A stretch of 63,967 nt of DNA, the filler included, from Blastocystis sp. subtype 4 (taxonomy: Eukaryota), in assembly GCF_000743755.1 (NCBI RefSeq). It is 8 parts of 8 records of this genome, joined end to end, with 100 filler letters (N's around TTAATTAATTAA, not from the genome) between each part and the next. Parts side by side here need not be neighbours in the genome. Positions count along the whole stretch, not along the records: positions 16,954 to 25,295 come from NW_014569171.1; 7 more parts are not named here. The stretch is one strand, 5' to 3'. Shown here piece after piece: positions 8,238 through 41,990 of this stretch; the first letter of the stretch is position 1; each line of letters opens with the position of its first letter. Both the position numbers and the translations under genes were made by a program. The notes under the pieces were generated by a model. The model saw nothing but the letters and a program-made list of their open reading frames with translations, did no database searches and was not told where the DNA came from.

Positions 8238-8345
8238 TATGTTTGTTGAGAGTTTTATGTGTTTACAGCTCTTTCGGATCACTTCTATATTCCTCTCACT
8301 ATTCTTTCTAACAAACAGCTTCCCAACAGCATTCAACAACACCGT

Positions 8346-8408
8346 TTAGTTCTTGACAGTTCCAAAGAACTTGGCCTTCTCGGAGGAGGTCTGGAATCTT
8401 CCGTGACC
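8346..8408 (-). CDS. RPL3: 60S ribosomal protein L3, C-terminal fragment at contig end
   Basis: Translates GHGRFQTSSEKAKFFGTVKN*, the conserved uL3 C-terminus. Confidence 0.75.
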   Translation of the reverse strand, partial: GHGRFQTSSEKAKFFGTVKN

Positions 8409-8508
8409 NNNNNNNNNNNNNNNNNNNNNNNNNNNNNNNNNNNNNNNNNNNNTTAATTAATTAANNNNNNNNNNNNNNNNNNNNNNNNNNNNNNNNNNNN
8501 NNNNNNNN
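8409..8508. other. artificial contig linker (N run with TTAATTAATTAA); identical linkers at 16854-16953, 25296-25395, 33703-33802, 42089-42188, 51490-51589, 59782-59881
   Basis: Identical 100-nt spacer with stops in all six frames; genes are cut at these points. Confidence 0.95.
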
Positions 8509-8992
8509 AATCAACATCTGAATAACTCACATCCTTCCAATTGTCTGAAACACTGTTTGTGTACTTCCAACTATCATTCTTGTTGATAGGAGAATACAGA
8601 GAGAACTCTTCTCTTTGAACCCTATCTTCAGTCATCATTCCCTTGTACACAATGTTTCCATTCATTCCTTCTATCTCAATCCAAGTACCTGAAAACCATC
8701 GACCATTCTGTGAACATTTCATAACAAGAGTGAATATGTGATTAGAAGAAGCATTCAAACAGACTTCATACACATATAGTTGATTGTTTGAGAATGGAGG
8801 AGAAGTGAATAGAACAGAAGAACCAGATACAATCTCAAATGACTCTTCAGAAGCATCATCATCGCCAGTTTTCTTAGTGATCTTAGCATAATCTTGATTA
8901 GATGAACATTGAATAGAGTAAGAGAGTAGAATGAAGAATGAAACAGAATGTGAAGAATAGAATGAGATGATTGATACTACAATCAACAACAA
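8509..8992 (-). CDS. N-terminal part of a secreted/surface protein of a lineage-specific family (partial)
   Basis: Hydrophobic start followed by a beta-rich domain (WFSGTWIEIEGMNG, WKYTNSVSDNWKD); truncated by linker. Confidence 0.5.
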
Positions 8993-16493: not shown

Positions 16494-16953
16494 GCTGTTT
16501 TCAAGAAACACAAAGGCATTAACAAGCTTTATGCTCTGCTCTTCTTGCCCTTCTTACCTTTCTTGCCCTTCTTTCCCTTCTTTCCAACCAAATCTCCTTC
16601 CATTCCAGCAAGAGCCTTTCCAGTCCAACCAATCAACACAAGAAGACAAATGTTACTCACCAGTTGAGTCAACACTAATCATTATCAATTGTACTAACAA
16701 ATACTCATTCCCCAACCCAAGAAAGCAGATCGAGAATAGTTGAAAATACCACACAAGAAGCTGATTAAACCGCAAACACCTCCAATGAAAGCAGTCTTAC
16801 TATAACCAGCACTGAACTTCTATTTGTCAATCAAGGTAATGAAGAATCACATCNNNNNNNNNNNNNNNNNNNNNNNNNNNNNNNNNNNNNNNNNNNNTTA
16901 ATTAATTAANNNNNNNNNNNNNNNNNNNNNNNNNNNNNNNNNNNNNNNNNNNN

Positions 16954-17245
16954 AGATGGTATACAACTGAATGAGATGACAGGAGAGATTTCAGGTATTC
17001 CAAGTACCTTAGGAGATCCTATTGATGTCACTATTCAAGTATGGAATGAAGTAGGATCTGAAGAGACAACCTTGACTCTTGTTGTGAAGAGATTCACAAT
17101 CTTGGCGATAGTATTGATGGTTATTGGTGGTGTAATCCTATTCTGTTTTGTAGTTCTGGTTATGATAAGAATCAAGACAAGAAAGAGTAGTACTAATCAG
17201 GGCTCTATAAGATCACTGGAAAGAAAGTATTACCAGAAGATTTGA
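16954..17245 (+). CDS. C-terminus of a type I membrane protein with a putative Ig (He_PIG-like) domain (partial)
   Basis: GIQLNEMTGEISGIP..VWNEVGS followed by a TM helix and basic tail. Confidence 0.65.
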
Positions 17246-17429
17246 AGATTTGGTGTAGAAATTGTTCTGAGAATCTGTTTTGTTGAGAAGTGCAATCTAT
17301 GTGCATCGTTGAGTTGATGCAAAATGAACGAATGCATCCAAATAATCATCATTCCTTGATATCGCCAAAACACTTTGGCATACTCCAATTTCAAACAATA
17401 TGAAACTACAAGGAAATCAACAACAGTCT

Positions 17430-18030
17430 TCTTATTGCTTTGACTAATTCCTAACTGTTCAAAGATAGATTGTAGATAAGCTTTGTTATCTTTTTTCCAA
17501 AGAAGGCAGTCATAGCGTCATCTTCTACAACCACATTCATCATAGATTTCAAAGTATTCTTCCCTACATACACATCATTACTATGCTCAACCAAATCCAA
17601 TGCACATCATTCTCAATATCCAATTCTGTTTCCAGTCATGATTGTATTCACATTGACTTTATTTGTTCAGTTGATTTCTCACAAGCACCAGATATCATAG
17701 ACATATTAGGTCTAACAGAAACAACATATAATCCAGGTGCAAATACAGGAACTAATATCATTGATATCACTAGAAACAGACAAGTGATACAAGTCTATTC
17801 TTCAATTGTACGAACATCTGATCTTAAGATTGCTAATCAGAATAACAATCTCATTACTACAATCATAATCAATGATCCTCAACTCAGATACTTGAATACT
17901 GTGAACAAGTCAATATTCCTATCATCAATCGATTTCATCGTATCTACTTCTCATTCAAAGATTTGGATGGTAATCTAATGAATTTGAATGCTGATTTTGA
18001 ACTTCAATTGACTATTGATGATGTTATGCA
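17430..18030 (+). pseudogene. decayed minor capsid (penton)-like gene of Polinton/PLV-type dsDNA virus, copy 1
   Basis: Intronless; FSQAPDIIDILGL..GTNIIDITRNRQVIQVYSSIV..NLITTI resembles the LG(F)..D..I.VY..IV pattern of single-jelly-roll pentons; frame disrupted at both ends. Confidence 0.5.
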
Positions 18031-18112
18031 TCAAACTGAACCGAACGCAAATCACTCATACGAACTCCTGACATGTTCAAATGACTAAACGAACACACAT
18101 TGTTCAATCCCA

Positions 18113-18423
18113 TTATTGAGTAGACATACAATCCACTAATGGACTTGTTTCAAATGATATCATCTGTTTTACCAGATTACTGTAGATTCGAATACATTTC
18201 AATCCACTTGATAGATCCACTGGTTCTCTTCCTTTCACACCATTTGCCTGAATCTTATCAAATCCCAATATCGACTCAAATCAGGTGCTTGTTGAAATAC
18301 TAGATCATAAGCAGGACCAGAAGGATGTGCATATCCATCTTCTGTGAATGTGAGATATGAACCAAACATCTCTTCTTCTTGATCATAGTATCCTACTTCA
18401 ACAACGATAATGATAACAAACAT
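18113..18423 (-). pseudogene. decayed minor capsid (penton)-like gene, copy 2, frameshifted
   Basis: FQQAPDL/(frameshift)ILGFDKIQANGVKGREPVDLSSGLKCIRIYSNLVK aligns with copy 1. Confidence 0.5.
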
Positions 18424-18479
18424 AAATTATGTCATCTTCAACACAAATTAGTTAATGCAAATCAGTTAAAGATGATCAC

Positions 18480-19287
18480 TCCTTCTGTCGAATGATGTGA
18501 TCAAACGAATCAGCATCTCAACTGTTATCTTTAATTAATCATACTTGAACTCTGCAGTTCTCTGACACCACTAAATTCCTTATCTCCCAACTTAATCCCA
18601 TCTTCTGTTAGTGATAGAATGTCTAATTCAAATGCAATTCATCAATAATCTCCAATATCACTTTGCTTATTTGTATTAAACTGAAATCACTTCCAATGAA
18701 TACTAGAAGAGAAGGAAGATCTGACCTAACTATACTCTATCATTCCCACTTCTCATTATCAACTCATTTGATTCTCCTTTCTGACAGTCACCAATTACAA
18801 CCAAGATTCCGACACATATAGATTGAAGTTGAATCAGATCTCATTCATCATTCATTCAATCATTCATACTCTCAAAAACAACAGAATGACAACGAACGAA
18901 TGCACCTATATCTAGTTTAATTGATTTGAGAGAAAGGAGATTCTTCACTTCAAATGATTCATACAAACAGAATGAATTGTAACCGATCTGTATTTGTCTC
19001 AACAGACTACAATTCATTATCACACATTTGCTTCCTTCTTCACCGTTCTTCTCAAGTTCAAAACTCTTGTCTCCAATCTTCACGCTCTTCAGCTCATTAA
19101 GTCCATCAATCAAGAATTGAATCATATTCTTAAAACAACCATTTCCAATCTCAAGCATTTCAACTCCTTTCAAACAATTATTATCAAATACACTCAAATC
19201 ACTTCCATATCCATCTTCTAATCGTTTGATTGCACCGGATTCATCATTGCTGCCCACTTTTGACTTGAAATGAACTACTGCTTCCAT
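18480..19287 (-). CDS. leucine-rich-repeat (BspA-like) multicopy family member, possibly pseudogene
   Basis: LEIGNGCF..IDGLNELKSVKIGDKSF..LKSIKLDIGAF repeats; 3' exons and introns similar to those at 23850-25290. Confidence 0.6.
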
Positions 19288-19559
19288 TCTTTTAACATTA
19301 TCTTATCATTTCCCTGTATAGCTACCAAGGGTTGGAGGTCCTTGTTGGTGACGATTTGTTTGCTTCCAGTTTGTACGTGATATATGTCTAAACCTTCCCA
19401 TTTTGCCTTTACTACCACAGTTCGGAGTGTTGTGTGTTCCATCTGTGGATAAGTTCGACCCCTACAAGAGAATAGAATTGCTTTCTGGAGAGATACCATC
19501 GGAGAACACAAGAGTCTCTGCATTCTCTGTATCAGAGTCTACAAGAGACATCCTCGTAG

Positions 19560-20030
19560 CAACGGTGTGTCCTTCATCCAGCTTGCGTTTCTGTAGTGAG
19601 AGGAGTTTGAGAAGTTTCTGAATGGAATGATCATGGAGGTAGTGTCGAAATAATTACCTTTAGCTGTTGGAAGAAGCTGGATTACTTCAACACCTGTGTA
19701 TATCACTAATTCGATTATCAAAGATAAAAGATGACGAAGGTGTTGGACTAGCTACATCGAGTTTCTCATGATATCGATTCCTTGTACAAAGACAAGTTCT
19801 ACAAGCGAGTGGCGATTGCGGCTATTCGCTGTGCAATCCGTTTAGCCCAGAACCCTATCAATGAAGTGGACTACAAGAAACATTTCTCTCTGCTCCATTA
19901 CCACAAAGTTCATAAGAAGGGAGCTGAATACCGTGATGATGAGAATCCCGATAGCTTGAAGCCAATTTATGGCAATGAACCAGAAGAGTATCTGCAAAGC
20001 AGTAGAAGAGTTGTCTTTGTTTGCAGATGA
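19560..20030 (+). pseudogene. fragment resembling the C-terminal part of NatA auxiliary subunit NAA15, with stops and frameshift
   Basis: *FDYQDKR*RRCWTSYIEFLMI/DSLYKDKFYKRVAIAAIRCAIRLAQNP vs NAA15 pattern QFDFH..RK..RSYV..L..D.L....FY.KAA..AI..Y..L..NP. Confidence 0.5.
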
Positions 20031-20338
20031 TGTGGAGTGTTGGAGGTGTAAAAGGGAAGAAAGAAACGGGATTAACCATTGTTGACACTTATGGTGTAGT
20101 TTTCTGAGCATCATCCTCTGTACTCATTTGTGATAGATGAACGCCACACATATGTATCCTTGTCTGGAAAACGCATCCTATTCGAACTAAAGAAATCACC
20201 TCAAACGAATTGACGCTTATTTTCTGAAAGGGTCCTTACGAGTACTTGTTTCAGAGCAATGGAAATCCGGATTTAGTATATCAAGCAATCATCACAAAGA
20301 GTCAATCCAATATATAGAACAAACTAAAAGCAGGAGAA

Positions 20339-20671
20339 TTACTTCCTTATAAATGCAGAATCTGCTGCATTGACGTCATTATCGTCAGACATATATCGTT
20401 CCACTTTCATATGTAAATCATACTTTTCCCGAAGTTCCATGATTCTTGCCATCATTGGGGAAGCGTGGTGGACATCGATCGAGTGTTGGTCTTTCCAGCT
20501 ATCAATAAGAAGGACTGTTTCCGTGTCTTCCATTGGAAAAAAGTATTCATATCGAAGATTTCCGGCTTCACCACGAATATCAGTCACAATTCCACTTGAA
20601 ACCATTTCTTCTGCAAATCTCTTTGCACTTCCATTTGTACCAGTGTAATAGATATTAACTGTAATGACCAT
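20339..20671 (-). CDS. antibiotic biosynthesis monooxygenase (ABM) / putative quinol monooxygenase, bacterial type
   Basis: Intronless 110 aa; IRGEAGNLRYEYF..VLLIDSW..HHASPMM typical of ABM-family proteins. Confidence 0.85.
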   Translation of the reverse strand: MVITVNIYYTGTNGSAKRFAEEMVSSGIVTDIRGEAGNLRYEYFFPMEDTETVLLIDSWKDQHSIDVHHASPMMARIMELREKYDLHMKVERYMSDDNDVNAADSAFIRK

Positions 20672-21269
20672 AAGCTTGTATTCTGTTTATACGCCAATCC
20701 ACTAGAAAGCCCAATAACTACTCCCAATATCCTCAAAACTGTTAAGAGTAGTACAGTGGTTAACACCTAACCACTATTTATGATAATTATAATTATGTTA
20801 CATATTGTGGAGAGTTGTAACTGAATTGAAACACGGAAGTTATGCCAGTTCATATAGTCATTTCAACCGCGATTGTAATCAGTAATAAATGCTTCATTTT
20901 GATTGGTGTTTATTATCTGGTAAGAAACATACAACTAGCTAAACCTTCACATTCACGCTCAACCATATGTTGATGTAGATGTTAGAAGCGATTGAGACTA
21001 CTTCACCACGACGATTCTATTCTGATGATCCACTATGCTAAGGATTCTCTTCAGTTTCTCTGAAGTCTCTTCAATGGTTGTAAGTTTAGTGTATCTGATG
21101 ACCTAAGGCTAATTGAGATTGTTAATAACAAGCAATTCTACCACATCTATTAACGTGATGACATGGAGTTCCTCCAGTAGTGAGGTTATTAGTGTTCTGC
21201 AGAGGTGCCTCACCATATTACCTTAGGTCATTAGCATGCTGGCAACAAATAACCATACGAATTACGGTC

Positions 21270-21545
21270 TGTACAGAAGCATATAGTATTACCTTGGTTA
21301 CTTCTGATCCAACTCATTATTATTCTATTCTTTATAAAATGGCTAGAAGAATTCGTTATCGTAGATATCGACATGCCACAAGGCCCGCTTACACTGTCTC
21401 CCACAAGTACATCCGAAATGGTACATAATCTGTTCGCAGCATTAAAGGCTGGTATACTTCGTCATGCCATCCTCAACCATTCGCTCCTACTTAGTATTCT
21501 GCTACAGTATTCTTACTATTAAGCATCTTTGTGTCCAGCTACAGG
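21270..21545 (+). pseudogene. decayed CRESS-DNA virus capsid copy (ATG 21339) with its own origin hairpin (TAGTATTAC 21284-21292)
   Basis: MARRIRYRRYRHATRPAYTVSHKYIRNGT* then, via frameshifts, IKGWY..ILTIKHLCVQLQ, homologous to the N-terminus of 21870-22529; CAGAAG/CTTCTG stem around the nonamer. Confidence 0.85.
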
Positions 21546-21779
21546 TTTGTTATTTGTAAGTGTTTTCCGAATGTAGTAGATCCTACTGTTATCTCTATTG
21601 AAGGTAGTGATAGCATTGTATTATATATCCATAGCTAACAGAAGTGTTCTTAAGAATATTACCTAACTCAACCATGCTGTAGTTATAAGAGGTGTGACAA
21701 TACAGTCTGCCCAGAAGTACAAAGTATTACCTTATCTCACTTCCGTGCCAACCAATCAAATTCTTGGGATCCCAATGGG

Positions 21780-21858
21780 ATAATGACGGTTTTGGCCACT
21801 GCCCAGAAATCTATAGTATTACCCTTCACTTCTGGGCAATGACCCAAATAGTCATTAT
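21780..21858 (+). promoter_or_regulatory. rolling-circle replication origin stem-loop with nonanucleotide TAGTATTAC (21814-21822)
   Basis: Inner stem TGCCCAGAA/TTCTGGGCA and outer stem ATAATGAC/GTCATTAT around the canonical circovirus/nanovirus nonamer. Confidence 0.9.
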
Positions 21859-21869
21859 TTTTTTATGGA

Positions 21870-22529
21870 ATGGCTCACAAACTCCGCTACCGCCGCTATC
21901 GTCGATCTGGTCCCCGACCTGCCTACACGATCAACCACAAGTATATCCGCAACCTCACCTGGGATGCTCTCGGAGTCGAGGGCTGGTTTGCTGCCTCGGT
22001 TCAGCTGGTTAATAACCCGTCTATTCTTACCTCTAATTCTGCTGGCAATATACTTACTGTTAAGCATATTAAATGCCAACTCCAGAATCTGCCTACCTAC
22101 TTTGGAACCAACTCTACCACTGGGGTCTATAATTTCGGGCAACTAGAAGGTGGATGGATTTGTGTGTATGTTCCTGAGGGAACTAACCCAAACCGCCCTT
22201 TTCCTGACCTGACTACTGGTGCTTCTAGCTTGACCTTGTATGAACCTAATCAGTTTGTACTATATCATGGCACTTGGATGGAAGGTGGTTCTTACTATCA
22301 GACTAATCGTCCTGAACCTATTCTGGAGAACGGTGCTCTTGGCTATAACCGCTACTCAAATACTCCCCCTGGTAACCTCTGCCGTATTACTATCCCTCTC
22401 TCTAAAAGACTCAACCCCGGTGACTCTATCTATATGATCTATTATGCTAAAGGAGATCCCAACCTCATCTCCGGCACCTCTATTGAAGGCTGCGAAACTA
22501 TTGTATCCTACGCGTCTAAAGCTAATTAA
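21870..22529 (+). CDS. cap: CRESS-DNA virus capsid protein (single jelly-roll, Arg-rich N-terminus)
   Basis: Intronless 219 aa; N-terminal RYRRYRR arm; TVKH, VYVPEG, LYEPNQFV, KRLNPGDSIY motifs like capsids of gut-protist-associated CRESS viruses; adjacent origin. Confidence 0.85.
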   Translation: MAHKLRYRRYRRSGPRPAYTINHKYIRNLTWDALGVEGWFAASVQLVNNPSILTSNSAGNILTVKHIKCQLQNLPTYFGTNSTTGVYNFGQLEGGWICVYVPEGTNPNRPFPDLTTGASSLTLYEPNQFVLYHGTWMEGGSYYQTNRPEPILENGALGYNRYSNTPPGNLCRITIPLSKRLNPGDSIYMIYYAKGDPNLISGTSIEGCETIVSYASKAN

Positions 22530-22537
22530 CCTGATTT

Positions 22538-22545
22538 TGTTTGTT
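22538..22545 (+). terminator. host-type polyadenylation element TGTTTGTT downstream of cap
   Basis: Exact motif 8 nt after the cap stop, same as at host gene ends in this window. Confidence 0.7.
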
Positions 22546-23849
22546 TAAAAATACCTAACTCAACCATATACACGATACCATGGAGCCCCTCGGGGCGGTG
22601 TGGGGGTTACCCGGTGCTCCGTAGGAGTGCCGCAATAAGAATACCTAACCTTATCTCACTTCCGTACCATCCAATCAAATTCTTGGGATCCCAATAGGAT
22701 AATGACGGTTTTGGCCACTGTTCAGAAGTCTATAGTATTACCCTAGTAGATATTGGTATTAATATCGTACAAGTTTTAAACAGACATATTATATGACAAG
22801 GCCCATAAGAAATGCAAGATACCCTTCTTTCAACCAGATTATAGTTACTTTTGAAGAATCATCTTCACTATTGCCTGATTTACTCATAGTAATAATGAAT
22901 CTACAATAGGTTGAACCATTTCATTCACACTCAACTGTATGTTGATGTAGATGTCAGCAATTTGCATACGTTCACCAGACAATCACACTCAACAAACTAA
23001 TTGAATGCAATCACTCATACCAAAAACTCATTATACATCCCTATCAAGTATCCAACATTTGCGTTCTTCTTGATAATGAATAGAACTGCTTCTTTTGGTT
23101 CCTGTGTCTAAATCTAGTATTCCATAGAATGAATCTGTCTTATTCATAGTCTTCAGTCCAATTGAATTAGATAGGATGATAACTGGTAGTAGGAATTCAT
23201 CCTATAATGGTAGTATGCGTCTGATGTACTTAACATCACAATTATCAAGTCCTTAATTTGTTATCCAAAGGCCCATGATTCTATTGTAGCCTTTGGTATT
23301 ACTCAATACCATTTCTTTATCTGGATCAACCATCTAAAAGATGGCTTCCAACCCTAAGTAGCTGTACAGGATAGATTTCAAAACTAAACCATCATTTTCA
23401 TAACACTAACATTATTTCGAGACAAACTGAATGGTGATTAAGAACAAAGATTGTCATTCATTCTTGCAGCATTGTTACTGACTTCAGTAAGATGTACTAC
23501 TCAATAATCATTAGGAAAACCAAATGGATCATTCTCTTGGTAGAATCCATATCGATTCATCAATTCTTGTCCAATCGTTCATATTCTACTTTTACCTGCT
23601 TCAAATGTACTCTTTACTAACATCAATCAATTCAATGCCTTCTCCAATACCGATGAATCAATGATGTTTGATAAAGGATATTATACTCTTGCTCACATAA
23701 TTGCTATTTCCAATCAAACGCAATACTCATCATTCTCTCTCTCACCCACTTATCATCCTATTCATCATCACAATTCTCGTTGACACGAACGCTAGCATTA
23801 TAAATAGCATATTCATCATCGGTTACTATTCTTTAACCTTTAATAACTC

Positions 23850-25290
23850 CCAAACCCTTCTGTCGAATGAACTGATCAAGAGAATCAGCATCTCAATCAT
23901 TATCAATCAATCAATCTTACTCGAACAAGTCAATACTTTCACATTGTTGAATGCCTTACATGTCATCTGTATCCCTTGTTCAGTGAGTGATGGAATGTCT
24001 AGTTCAAATTCAATCATCTATCATCACTATCCAATATCACTTTGCCTATCCACAAGAAATTGTAGCCATCTCCTTTGAGTGAAGAAAGAGAAGGAAGATC
24101 TCATCAATCAATCATTATTGTCATTCATACTCTTCATTATCAATTCATTTGATTCAATAACATGATAGTCACCACAAAGAACCCCATATCCAAGAGTGAT
24201 AGATTGAAGTCGATTTAAATCTCATTGATCATTCATTTAATCGTTCATACTCTTAAACACTATTGAATGGCAACTACAGAATGCATCACAACCCATTTCA
24301 AGAGAGATGAGAGTACGAAGATTAGAGAGATTGAATGATTTTTCCCTCATTCCCACTTCTCCTTGAATCACAATCGATTCAACAGAACTAGATATCTCTT
24401 TCATTTGATCGATTCTAGATATCCAGAATGCTGATGGATGAAGAGATAGTAAGTGTTCAGAAGCAATCACATGACTATTCTTTGTAATGTAATATTCAAG
24501 AGAATCAGCATCTCAATCAGTATCAATCAATCAATCATACTTGAACTATCCAACTGCACATTGCAGAATATGCTTCTCAGCTTAATCCCATCTTCAGTGA
24601 GTGATGGAATGTCTAGTTCAAATTCAATATCACTCATTACTATCCAATAACATTTTGCTAATGTAGAGGAAGTTGTTACCATCTCCTTTGAATGAAGATA
24701 GAGAAGGGAGATCTAATCAATCAATCATCATCATCACTCATACTCTTCATTATCAATTCATTTGATTCAACAGTATTCCTATAACCATCTAAAGCCAACA
24801 GTCCAACATCGATAGATTGAAGTTGAGTCAGATCTCATTCATCATTCATTCAATCATTCTTACTCTCAAATACGATCCTATGACATAAGTAGAATGCATA
24901 TTGACCCAATTGAATGGATATCAGAGAACGAAGATTCTTCAATTCAAATGATTCATAACTGTAAAATGATCTGTATCCAATATGGATTTCACTCAGTTGA
25001 TCACAATTCATTATCAAACATTTACTGCCTTCTCGATTAGATTCATCAAGTTCAAAGCTCCTATTACCAATAACCAAACTCTCCAATTCATTCAATCCAT
25101 CAATCACAAATTGATTCACATTCTCAAAACAATCATTTCCAATGTCAATTCGTTTCAATGATATCAATGAATTGTTCAGTATCAATGATGATATATCAGG
25201 AGGATTGAAATGATCAGCAATAATCAGAGATTCAATACAACTAGTAACAATCAATTCACAATCATCAATCCATTTCATTCTCATATCATC
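23850..25290 (-). repeat. two tandem LRR-family gene fragments with shared exon/intron sequence (related to 18480-18880)
   Basis: Recurring blocks AAGAGAATCAGCATCTCAATC, AGTGAGTGATGGAATGTCTAGTTCAAATTCAAT, GATAGATTGAAGT; ORFs 24237-24470 and 24850-25284 end like 18856-19287 (..IVFES.ND). Confidence 0.7.
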
Positions 25291-25396
25291 ATTAANNNNN
25301 NNNNNNNNNNNNNNNNNNNNNNNNNNNNNNNNNNNNNNNTTAATTAATTAANNNNNNNNNNNNNNNNNNNNNNNNNNNNNNNNNNNNNNNNNNNNC

Positions 25397-25555: not shown

Positions 25556-26882
25556 ATGAGTATTGTCGATTGTTCCCATTTCCATTTTGATAAGAATTCT
25601 GTACGCATCTGTATTGTGGGAGTGGGAGCTTTAGGCTCATCAGTGCCATTGAATCAACAGACTGATCCTTAGGTACTCCAGTTGTTAGCAGATGAAGGAT
25701 ATCCTAATGTTGATGTTATTGATATGGATATTGTCGAGTTGGACAATCTTGGTTTTCAGTTGTTGTTTGAGGAAAATGATATTGGAAAGAAAAAGACTGA
25801 TGTGGTTCTTCAACGACTATTTGGTTCTAGCGACTTACCTAATCATCGATCCTTCGCATGTAGTGTGCAAAGCCTTCCTTTGAATCAACTTCTCTCATAT
25901 AATATCATTCTCGGTTGTGTTGATAATTTGGAAGCCCGTTCATATATAAATTCGATCGTTGTTAATCAAGGACAAGAAAAGATTGTGTACATCGATGGAG
26001 GATCGATGGGACTGGGTGGCCAGGCTCATTTGATTATTCCATCTGTACAAATCTGTCTGAAGATTGATAAATAGGTGACACCTTGCTTTCAATGTCTGTA
26101 TGCTTTGTTTCCGGATCCATCTACAGAACTTTATCCTCTTTGTACAATCGTCTCTCATCCTGTGCTTCCTGAACACTGTATCACCTATGCTAAACAGATA
26201 CTGTGGGAAAAGAAACGACCTAATGAGCCTTTTGATACTGAGAATGAAGAACACATTCAATGGATTTATCATGAGGCTTTGGAACGGAGTCTTGAATTTG
26301 GAATTGAGGGGGTCACAGTCCAACTGACTCGTGTAGTAGATATGGAAAGGTTTAATTGGTTAGAGAGTGGCGAAGAATGTGATAATCACACATCCAGAGA
26401 CAAATTATCGTATTGCTCAGTTTATGCTTGAATTTGTGAATGAACTTGTGAATGCAGAGAGAATTGAATCGAATTATGTCATGTTTCTCTCTATTAGAGA
26501 TTGTGAGTCGTAGTTATCGAGGAGAGGAAGGCGAGTATGTTGAGCGATTTTGGATGGAGATAGACAGCGATTGTCCTGTTTGTGGGGTTCATCCCTCTCG
26601 GATCACGCTGTCTGTTCATTCTTCGTCGCTTTTGCAAGAAGTGATAGATTTGGTTTCAAAACAAATCAATCATCCATTTTCGTTGTGGATGGGAACGACA
26701 CCCTTATTTGCAGATGTAGTAAAGACGATTCGTGTATATCCATAGAAACCACGAGCTGTTCGTGAAGCGACAAAGAAAAATCTCTCACAGTCACTTAGTT
26801 CTCTTCACTTGTATAATGGTGATAGCCTTCTCATCCGTTCTTCTTCTGTTTCGTATACATTAATCCTACAATTGGCTACATA
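25556..26882 (+). CDS. UBA3: NEDD8-activating enzyme E1 catalytic subunit (spliced, divergent)
   Basis: IVGVGALG, DVIDMD, GCVDNLEAR, TPCFQC, YPLCTI..PEHCITYA, CPVC. Confidence 0.8.
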
Positions 26883-41909: not shown

Positions 41910-41990
41910 TGTGTTTGTTTTACAATATCTAGTGTAACTGAGAGGCATCTGGAACAAACATCAGAGAGCTCTACATCAGTTACACACCTC

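What the first reader, a model, noticed from the sequence alone, without database searches (positions are those of the whole stretch)
22527..22548. Viral capsid gene carries the Blastocystis-type poly(A) element
Seen: TAA (22527-22529) is followed 8 nt later by TGTTTGTT (22538-22545), inside the 919-nt unit, so it belongs to the viral circle rather than the flank. The same motif ends host genes here (8240, 41912, 47674). Known: this GU-rich element positions polyadenylation about 4 nt upstream in Blastocystis. Inference: the virus is adapted to this host's 3'-end processing, which supports Blastocystis as the true host and offers a sequence marker for assigning hosts to orphan gut CRESS viruses. 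The integrated cap may also be expressed.
Basis: partly seen in the sequence, partly recalled or inferred. Interest (0 to 1): 0.7.

Follow-up and report, generated by a model that had tools for sequence, protein, structure and literature searches.

The report
Gut-virus capsid genes lacking stop codons
A viral capsid gene inserted in the genome of the gut microbe Blastocystis ends in that host's RNA-tailing signal, and many of its free-living relatives have no stop codon at the conserved gene end, so they likely let the host's poly(A) tail write their stop codon, as many Blastocystis genes do.

Summary
TAA (22527-29) is followed 8 nt later by TGTTTGTT (22538-45), inside a 919-nt unit holding one jelly-roll capsid gene and a TAGTATTAC origin, integrated in Blastocystis ST4 DNA. 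All 4 capsid 3' ends seen in DNA of related tandem (circular) contigs carry the motif; 1 of 386 ORF ends in other small viral contigs does. Of 243 distinct homologous capsids, 95 run past the conserved C-terminus; 94 of these read x-x-V-C, the in-frame translation of T + 4 nt + TGTTTGTT. One contig shows this layout in DNA. These genes lack a genomic stop and likely get UAA from polyadenylation, the Blastocystis nuclear rule; my literature searches found no report of this for a virus. The state changes at least 6 times on the tree. The units are about 0.9 kb, carry no Rep, and are likely capsid-only segments or satellites; the Rep partner was not found. One run shows spliced contigs over the locus, but no poly(A) end was observed.

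The parts
21870..22529 (+). Intact capsid ORF, 219 aa, Arg-rich N-terminus, predicted single jelly-roll
22527..22529 (+). Genomic stop codon TAA of the capsid gene
22533..22534 (+). Predicted cleavage/poly(A) site (after 22533), giving a 4-nt 3' UTR; not observed
   Evidence: inference from the 4-nt rule in PMC4159000
22538..22545 (+). TGTTTGTT downstream element (Blastocystis poly(A) signal)
   Evidence: conserved in relatives
21729..22647 (+). 919-nt viral unit bounded by 97-nt direct repeats (21729-21825 / 22648-22744, 94% alike); no Rep
21814..21822 (+). Nonanucleotide TAGTATTAC in a weak stem-loop upstream of cap
22733..22741 (+). Second TAGTATTAC; similarity to the unit stops just after it (right junction with host DNA)
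21109..21675 (+). Older, decayed and internally deleted copy of the unit: own TAGTATTAC (21284-21292), cap start at 21339 with an early stop, decayed motif TGTTCTTA at 21645-21652
21604..21634 (+). 31-nt GT-AG segment missing from a contig of run X6 (likely spliced intron)
21487..21516 (-). 30-nt GT-AG segment on the minus strand missing from the same X6 contig (likely intron of an antisense RNA)

Best explanation
This is an integrated copy, in Blastocystis ST4, of a likely circular ~0.9-kb capsid-only DNA whose gene ends in the host's TGTTTGTT element; the host machinery is predicted to cut and polyadenylate 4 nt upstream of it, and in relatives without a genomic stop the tail would turn a lone U into UAA. 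Shown: the motif and its position here and in 4 of 4 related 3' ends; the stop-less layout in DNA in one contig and by translation in 94 proteins; the jelly-roll match; no Rep in the units; the same junctions with host DNA in independent contigs. Inferred: that free circles are transcribed in Blastocystis nuclei; that the precise cut relaxes selection on the stop's last two bases, so stops are lost or regained repeatedly; that a Rep on another molecule (second segment or helper virus) copies the circles from the nonanucleotide; and that the same Rep joined copies into the chromosome at TATTAC|C sites, the intact unit beside an older decayed one. In this window the genomic TAA is kept and the predicted 3' UTR is 4 nt.
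For: Motif at TAA+4 nt (L004, L006), at T|GATT (L005 copy 2) and at T|TATA with no stop (L005 copy 1). Of 243 distinct capsids with the C-terminal anchor, 148 end there, 94 run on as [Y/S/L/F/C]-x-V-C-[L/S/W/F/Y/stop], and 1 is a false anchor in a frameshifted fragment. Among the 71 cluster representatives: 29 end, 20 run on (20 of 20 fit), 22 lack the anchor. Chance fit per run-on tail is 2e-4. Tails vary from 4 to 31 aa, and frameshifted capsids show the motif in another frame (K-C-L-F). At least 6 changes of state on a 54-row tree. Controls: 0 of 180 and 1 of 206 ORF ends; 0 of 120 and 0 of 113 Rep C-termini show x-x-V-C. Host: the exact cap and the neighbouring ABM protein both lie on a contig of 882,118 nt, the length given for a named Blastocystis sp. 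BT1 (ST4) record. Flanks are identical or 94% alike in L001, L002, L003 and L007. Changing the motif together with two upstream T's cut reporter expression 324-fold in Blastocystis (PMC6395660 passage).
Against: No read or contig shows the poly(A) junction of any viral transcript. Only one stop-less end was seen in DNA; the other cases rest on translated tails, and a +1 Leu (23 of 94) or Ser (25 of 94) can also come from codons that do not start with T. The protein set is redundant (many members of the same 90% clusters). Host assignment of the free circles rests on the motif and on this one integrated lineage, not on co-occurrence data. Circularity is read from tandem contigs and contig sizes. 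One control virus (L142) has the motif 6 nt after its rep stop. The Rep partner was not found.
Confidence: 0.85

Rival explanations
1. The x-x-V-C tails are translated C-terminal extensions kept for a protein function, and the motif is a by-product.
For: 57 of 94 tails are 6 aa and look alike. No transcript end was seen.
Against: Tails range from 4 to 31 aa and agree only at the positions the motif dictates. The motif sits at nearly the same place in capsids that stop before it (L004, L006, window) and shows in another frame in frameshifted records. Capsids 98% identical differ in having the tail.
Confidence: 0.04
2. The motif is a real poly(A) signal, but the free circles infect another gut protist with the same signal (or several hosts), and only this lineage entered Blastocystis.
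For: No co-occurrence test was run. The 3'-end rules of most gut protists are unknown. The closest folds include a capsid of an Entamoeba-associated CRESS virus.
Against: The motif is reported as enriched only in the human-associated Blastocystis strains, not in tortoise strains or other stramenopiles. A family member is integrated in Blastocystis. Distant homologs (L008, L010-L013) have no motif.
Confidence: 0.06
3. The motif at 22538 is chance, or was gained after integration, with no bearing on the virus.
For: The region is T-rich, and one control virus shows a chance-like match.
Against: 4 of 4 free 3' ends and 94 of 95 run-on tails carry it at a fixed register.
Confidence: 0.01
4. The 0.9-kb units are defective or broken assemblies of ordinary Rep+Cap genomes rather than a capsid-only molecule class. 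(This concerns genome form only, not the poly(A) rule.)
For: Short-read unitigs break at variants, and many ENA contigs are 1.7-2.3 kb, long enough for Rep+Cap.
Against: L004 and L006 are head-to-tail repeats of 887 and 879 nt with cap as the only long ORF and a strong origin hairpin. 17 of 17 Logan-only representatives lie on 909-1032-nt contigs. Contigs of about 2.2-2.3 kb appear twice with two cap pieces at the same length, as expected of concatemers. No cap-profile hit in 791 ORFs of 79 Rep-bearing loci.
Confidence: 0.12

Closest known systems
Blastocystis downstream GU-rich element and poly(A)-created stop codons (Klimes 2014 PMC4159000; Gentekaki 2017 PMC5608401; Lind 2025 PMC12129017)
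   Same: Same 8-mer, same 4-nt spacer, same T-then-tail layout; 15-26% of host genes use it.
   Different: Described for host nuclear genes; here it is in viral capsid genes on mobile circles.
CRESSV1 / Pecoviridae, the CRESS lineage assigned to Blastocystis (Kinsella 2022 PMC9615429)
   Same: Gut CRESS DNA, Blastocystis host, endogenous copies, TAGTATTAC origin.
   Different: Defined by Rep; the Macochavirus-like genomes described are 2.9 kb with Rep and Cap. That survey found 37 Rep-like and 1 Cap-like insert and none in the two ST4 assemblies. The unit here has no Rep, so it cannot be placed in the family.
Nanoviridae DNA-S and other one-gene ~1-kb ssDNA components (family features recalled; abstract line)
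   Same: About 1-kb circle, one capsid gene, stem-loop origin; a nanovirus capsid is among the fold matches; L004 and L006 share their non-coding region.
   Different: Plant viruses with 6-8 segments (recalled). No partner segment is shown here, and identity to that capsid is 8%.
Capsids of protist-associated gut CRESS viruses (Entamoeba-associated CRESS DNA virus 1; kirkovirus-like genomes L010-L013)
   Same: Closest structural matches (E 1e-8) and weak profile hits (E about 1e-11 in a local search).
   Different: About 175-185 aa, on genomes that also carry Rep, with no TGTTTGTT.

Membership tests
Blastocystis downstream poly(A) element (DGE) | Exact or near-exact TGTTTGTT just downstream of a gene end | tested here: met
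   22538-22545, 8 nt after TAA; fixed register in relatives
Blastocystis downstream poly(A) element (DGE) | Poly(A) added 4 nt upstream of the motif | tested here: inconclusive
   Only contigs were laid; none shows a tail at 22533
Blastocystis downstream poly(A) element (DGE) | Genes with T, TA or TG at the cut and no genomic stop | tested here: met
   L005 copy 1 in DNA; 94 of 95 run-on tails compatible. Not the window's own gene, which keeps TAA
Cressdnaviricota (CRESS DNA virus) | Single jelly-roll capsid related to gemini-, nano- and circoviruses | tested here: met
   Model pLDDT 77.6; best PDB match maize streak virus capsid, E 7e-5; best viral matches CRESS capsids, E 2e-9; Atlas clusters 100% viral
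Cressdnaviricota (CRESS DNA virus) | Stem-loop origin with nonanucleotide | tested here: met
   TAGTATTAC three times in the insert; hairpins in free circles z -4.3 to -7.0, weaker or lost in the integrated copies
Cressdnaviricota (CRESS DNA virus) | HUH/SF3 Rep encoded on the genome | tested here: not met
   No Rep hit in the window, L001, L004-L006 or L008; a separate Rep molecule is inferred, not found
Cressdnaviricota (CRESS DNA virus) | Circular single-stranded encapsidated DNA | tested here: inconclusive
   Tandem contigs and 0.9-1.0-kb contig sizes imply circles; strandedness and particles not testable here
   No Rep on the unit; no confirmed pecovirus capsid was on hand for comparison
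Multipartite ssDNA virus (nanovirus-like organisation) | A Rep-bearing component sharing the non-coding common region | tested here: inconclusive
   Three non-coding patterns scanned in viral contigs: 0, 13 (all in contigs over 11 kb, not examined further) and 0 matches; the origin-pattern scan gave no cap relative
Endogenous viral element of Blastocystis | Viral sequence joined to host genes in independent assemblies | tested here: met

The most novel reading that the evidence does not exclude
A widespread, undescribed class of ~0.9-kb capsid-only ssDNA circles infects Blastocystis as part of a segmented virus or as capsid-donating satellites, and is the first virus whose genes lack stop codons and have them written by host polyadenylation; an x-x-V-C read-through tail then identifies Blastocystis viruses from protein databases alone.
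Probability: 0.65. Interest if true: 0.85.

Novelty: new variant of a known kind. Interest (0 to 1): 0.76.

Why it matters
Hosts of most gut CRESS viruses are unknown. A virus that has given up its own stop codon can express a correctly ended capsid only in a cell that cuts RNA by the Blastocystis rule, which would be a mechanistic, sequence-level host assignment for a family with clusters of up to 393 members. It also gives a natural test of the idea that precise cleavage relaxes selection on stop codons: near-identical viral genes with and without a genomic stop (98% identical) and at least 6 switches. It points to a segmented or satellite genome form in a protist virus, to a capsid insert in ST4 that a Rep/Cap survey did not report, and to systematic mis-annotation of these capsid C-termini.

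Tried and rejected
No whole genome is held for the window. Pfam found no family for the cap, and no solved-structure sequence match was useful. Single-protein scan of viral contigs: 0 loci. tblastn in plasmids and phages: no match. Genome contigs: 1 short, probably spurious 28-aa hit. Rep-partner hunt: origin-pattern scan (86 stretches, none with a cap relative); three non-coding patterns; Rep homologs of L013 and of a group of 275-281-aa Reps on 1.0-1.2-kb contigs, none with an x-x-V-C tail; L142 had the motif after rep but is an ordinary ambisense Rep+Cap genome with a TG-rich spacer and an unrelated cap. In run X6 the spliced contig stops at 22421 and nothing covers 22422-22844; a gap in contig cover is not evidence of a transcript end. 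T at -5 of the window's 30 motifs (14 of 30) is not clearly above T at neighbouring positions and was not used as evidence. Earlier scan findings: three look-ups returned nothing.

Full report
OBSERVATION. The window is a concatenation of contigs of about 8.4 kb joined by N-linkers; the finding lies in the piece 16954-25295. A 219-aa ORF runs 21870-22529 and ends in TAA; eight bases later comes TGTTTGTT at 22538-22545. Two 97-nt direct repeats (21729-21825, 22648-22744) set a 919-nt unit that contains the ORF and the motif. The motif occurs 30 times in the window against 4.25 expected. The gene at 8240 looks Luc7-like and that at 41912 thioredoxin-like; these two names are recalled and come from no call.

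HOST AND INTEGRATION. The cap protein, letter for letter, is on 245 contigs, the longest 882,118 nt. The neighbouring ABM-domain protein also has a longest contig of 882,118 nt, and clusters of two flanking LRR-like ORFs hold NCBI proteins named Blastocystis sp. BT1 on a contig of that length. BT1 is ST4 with 39.4% GC (PMC12129017 passages), which fits the window's 31-48% per kb. Four metagenome contigs (L001, L002, L003, L007) repeat the insert with host flanks at 94-100% identity. So this is an endogenous element, not a chimeric assembly. Kinsella 2022 reported 38 CRESS-like inserts in Blastocystis, 37 Rep-like and 1 Cap-like, and none in two ST4 assemblies (PMC9615429 section 8).

THE PROTEIN. 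Pfam has no family for it. An AlphaFold model from 32 sequences (pLDDT 77.6) matches geminivirus, circovirus and nanovirus capsids in the PDB (best E 7e-5, TM about 0.4; lectins also appear among the top hits) and CRESS capsids in BFVD (E 2e-9). The Atlas places it with clusters that are 97-100% viral. It is a single jelly-roll capsid with an Arg-rich N-terminus.

ANATOMY OF THE INSERT. TAGTATTAC occurs at 21284, 21814 and 22733. Upstream of the intact unit lies an older copy (about 21109-21675) with its own origin, a cap start at 21339 that meets an early stop, a large internal deletion, and a decayed motif (TGTTCTTA at 21645) (local alignment scores 69 and 59 against shuffle maxima 31 and 33). 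Several segment borders fall at TATTAC|C-like sites, which suggests Rep-made joins (inference). No Rep was found in the window by tblastn with 106 long viral ORFs or with a Rep profile.

FREE RELATIVES ARE CAPSID-ONLY UNITS. 71 homolog clusters were found. All 17 representatives known only from Logan lie on contigs of 909-1032 nt, and no representative's contig exceeds 2338 nt. Of 8 metagenome loci, 4 are the integrated locus and 4 are head-to-tail repeats: L004 (period 887), L006 (879), L005 (two variants 79% alike) and the distant L008 (831; 28% identity). Cap is the only long ORF in L004 and L006, and the origins fold into strong hairpins. ENA contigs of about 2.2-2.3 kb appear twice at the same length with two cap pieces, as concatemers would. 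The DNA of those contigs was not available.

THE MOTIF IS CONSERVED. In DNA, 4 of 4 close-family free 3' ends carry it: TAA + 4 nt (L004, L006), TGA + 2 nt, that is T|GATT (L005 copy 2), and AAC T|TATA with no stop at all (L005 copy 1). L008 and the distant Rep-bearing genomes L010-L013 have none; L009 ends at its stop. Controls: 0 of 180 long ORF ends in 66 small viral loci and 1 of 206 in 79 Rep-bearing loci. These ORFs are mechanical calls and some loci overlap. The one hit, L142, is an ambisense Rep+Cap genome with a TG-rich spacer.

MANY RELATIVES HAVE NO GENOMIC STOP. Klimes 2014 places poly(A) addition four bases upstream of TGTTTGTT in about 96% of 2,419 mapped genes, and describes genes whose UAA is completed by the tail (PMC4159000 passages); 26% of ST1 genes do this (PMC5608401 passages). 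If a cap gene ends codon-T-NNNN-TGTTTGTT, a gene caller reads on as [T-starting residue]-x-V-C-[T-starting residue or stop]. Of 612 stored proteins, 243 distinct ones reach the C-terminal anchor: 148 end there, 94 run on and fit this rule, and 1 is a false anchor. The +1 residues are Y 27, S 25, L 23, F 15, C 4. Among the 71 cluster representatives, 29 end, 20 run on (all 20 fit) and 22 lack the anchor. A random tail fits with probability 2e-4. Tail lengths range from 4 to 31 aa, and 11 frameshifted records end in K-C-L-F, the motif read in another frame. On a tree of 54 rows (107 full-length proteins thinned at 93% identity within each state; tails removed), the state changes at least 6 times, in all bootstrap trees; this does not say which state is ancestral. 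None of 120 and 113 Rep proteins shows the tail. Limits: the set is redundant, Leu and Ser codons need not start with T, and the layout was seen in DNA once.

EXPRESSION. Run X6 (RNA by guess) has one contig over 21156-22421 that lacks two segments, 30 nt (GT-AG on the minus strand) and 31 nt (GT-AG on the plus strand), both in the decayed copy. Short GT-AG deletions of this size fit Blastocystis introns (size recalled) and suggest transcription on both strands; the contig may merge overlapping RNAs. X15 (RNA) has a 353-nt piece inside cap at low depth. Contigs cannot show ends, strand or level, so the poly(A) site is unobserved. A reporter study found that changing the motif and two upstream T's lowered expression 324-fold (PMC6395660 passages), so the signal matters for expression in this host.

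MECHANISM. A capsid-only circle enters a Blastocystis nucleus; a Rep from another segment or a helper virus copies it (inferred); host RNA polymerase transcribes cap; host factors cut four bases before UGUUUGUU and add A's (inferred from host data). Because the cut is exact, the 3' UTR has shrunk to 0-4 nt, and in many lineages only the T of the stop is left. Here the TAA is kept. Confidence 0.85. Rivals: translated tails (0.04), another host with the same signal (0.06), chance (0.01); separately, broken Rep+Cap genomes instead of capsid-only circles (0.12).

COMPARISON AND NOVELTY. It works like a Blastocystis nuclear gene end and like a nanovirus capsid segment. It cannot be filed in Pecoviridae or in any Rep-defined family, since the defining gene is absent. 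CRESS viruses of Blastocystis are known (PMC9615429 passages, sections 6 and 8, two supplement places; 'polyadenyl' occurs 0 times in its main text). I found no paper on viral use of this element or on tail-made stops in CRESS viruses: Blastocystis + TGTTTGTT gave 4 papers, none on viruses by title or abstract; polyadenylation + stop codon + cressdnavirus gave 0; related searches gave nothing relevant by listing. The library lacks most subscription journals, so this is not proof of absence. Also seen as passages only: PMC11281440, PMC13475009, PMC7000223. The motif is reported as not enriched in tortoise Blastocystis (PMC12129017 section 7), so the marker covers only part of the genus.

VERDICT. 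Observation confirmed, interpretation supported and extended. New variant of a known kind; interest 0.76.

Noticed in passing
window 21487-21516 (-) and 21604-21634 (+): Two 30/31-nt GT-AG segments inside the decayed viral copy are missing from one contig of run X6, on opposite strands: the host spliceosome appears to have found introns in a dead viral insert that is transcribed both ways.
   Followed up: partly
L008 (831-nt repeat unit): A second, distant class of capsid-only circle (153-aa cap, no Rep) without TGTTTGTT; its stop runs into TAAA, which recalls the parabasalid poly(A) signal (recalled, untested). It may have a different protist host.
   Followed up: partly
L005 490-545 and 1395-1450: Two related capsid genes in one contig have quite different origins (TAGTATTAT in a long AT-rich stem versus CAGTATTAC), suggesting that caps swap origins and may be served by different Reps.
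   Followed up: partly
proteins P0492, P0496, P0498, P0499, P0501, P0503, P0505 and many of P0613-P0725: A large group of 270-285-aa CRESS Reps lies on 1.0-1.25-kb contigs, possibly Rep-only circles; no link to these capsids was shown.
   Followed up: partly
window 20339-20671 (-): Intronless 110-aa antibiotic biosynthesis monooxygenase (Pfam ABM) gene next to the insert, a likely bacterial gene transfer into Blastocystis; covered by a contig in run X6.
   Followed up: partly
window 18480-19290, 20921-20985, 22893-22957, 23858-25284: The insert sits among multi-copy LRR-like host repeats; a 65-nt repeat flanks it on both sides and has very high contig depth in the runs laid.
   Followed up: no
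proteins P0018, P0040, P0041, P0043, P0044, P0058, P0139-P0142, P0149: Many records share the same frameshifted C-terminus ending LTNKCLF; either a recurrent sequencing error or a real variant.
   Followed up: no
window 8400-8514, 16854-16953 and every ~8.4 kb: N-padded TTAATTAATTAA linkers: the window is a concatenation of contigs, so genes across linkers are not neighbours.
   Followed up: yes
window 25682-26745: ThiF-family (ubiquitin-like activating enzyme) gene broken by short introns, on the next contig.
   Followed up: no
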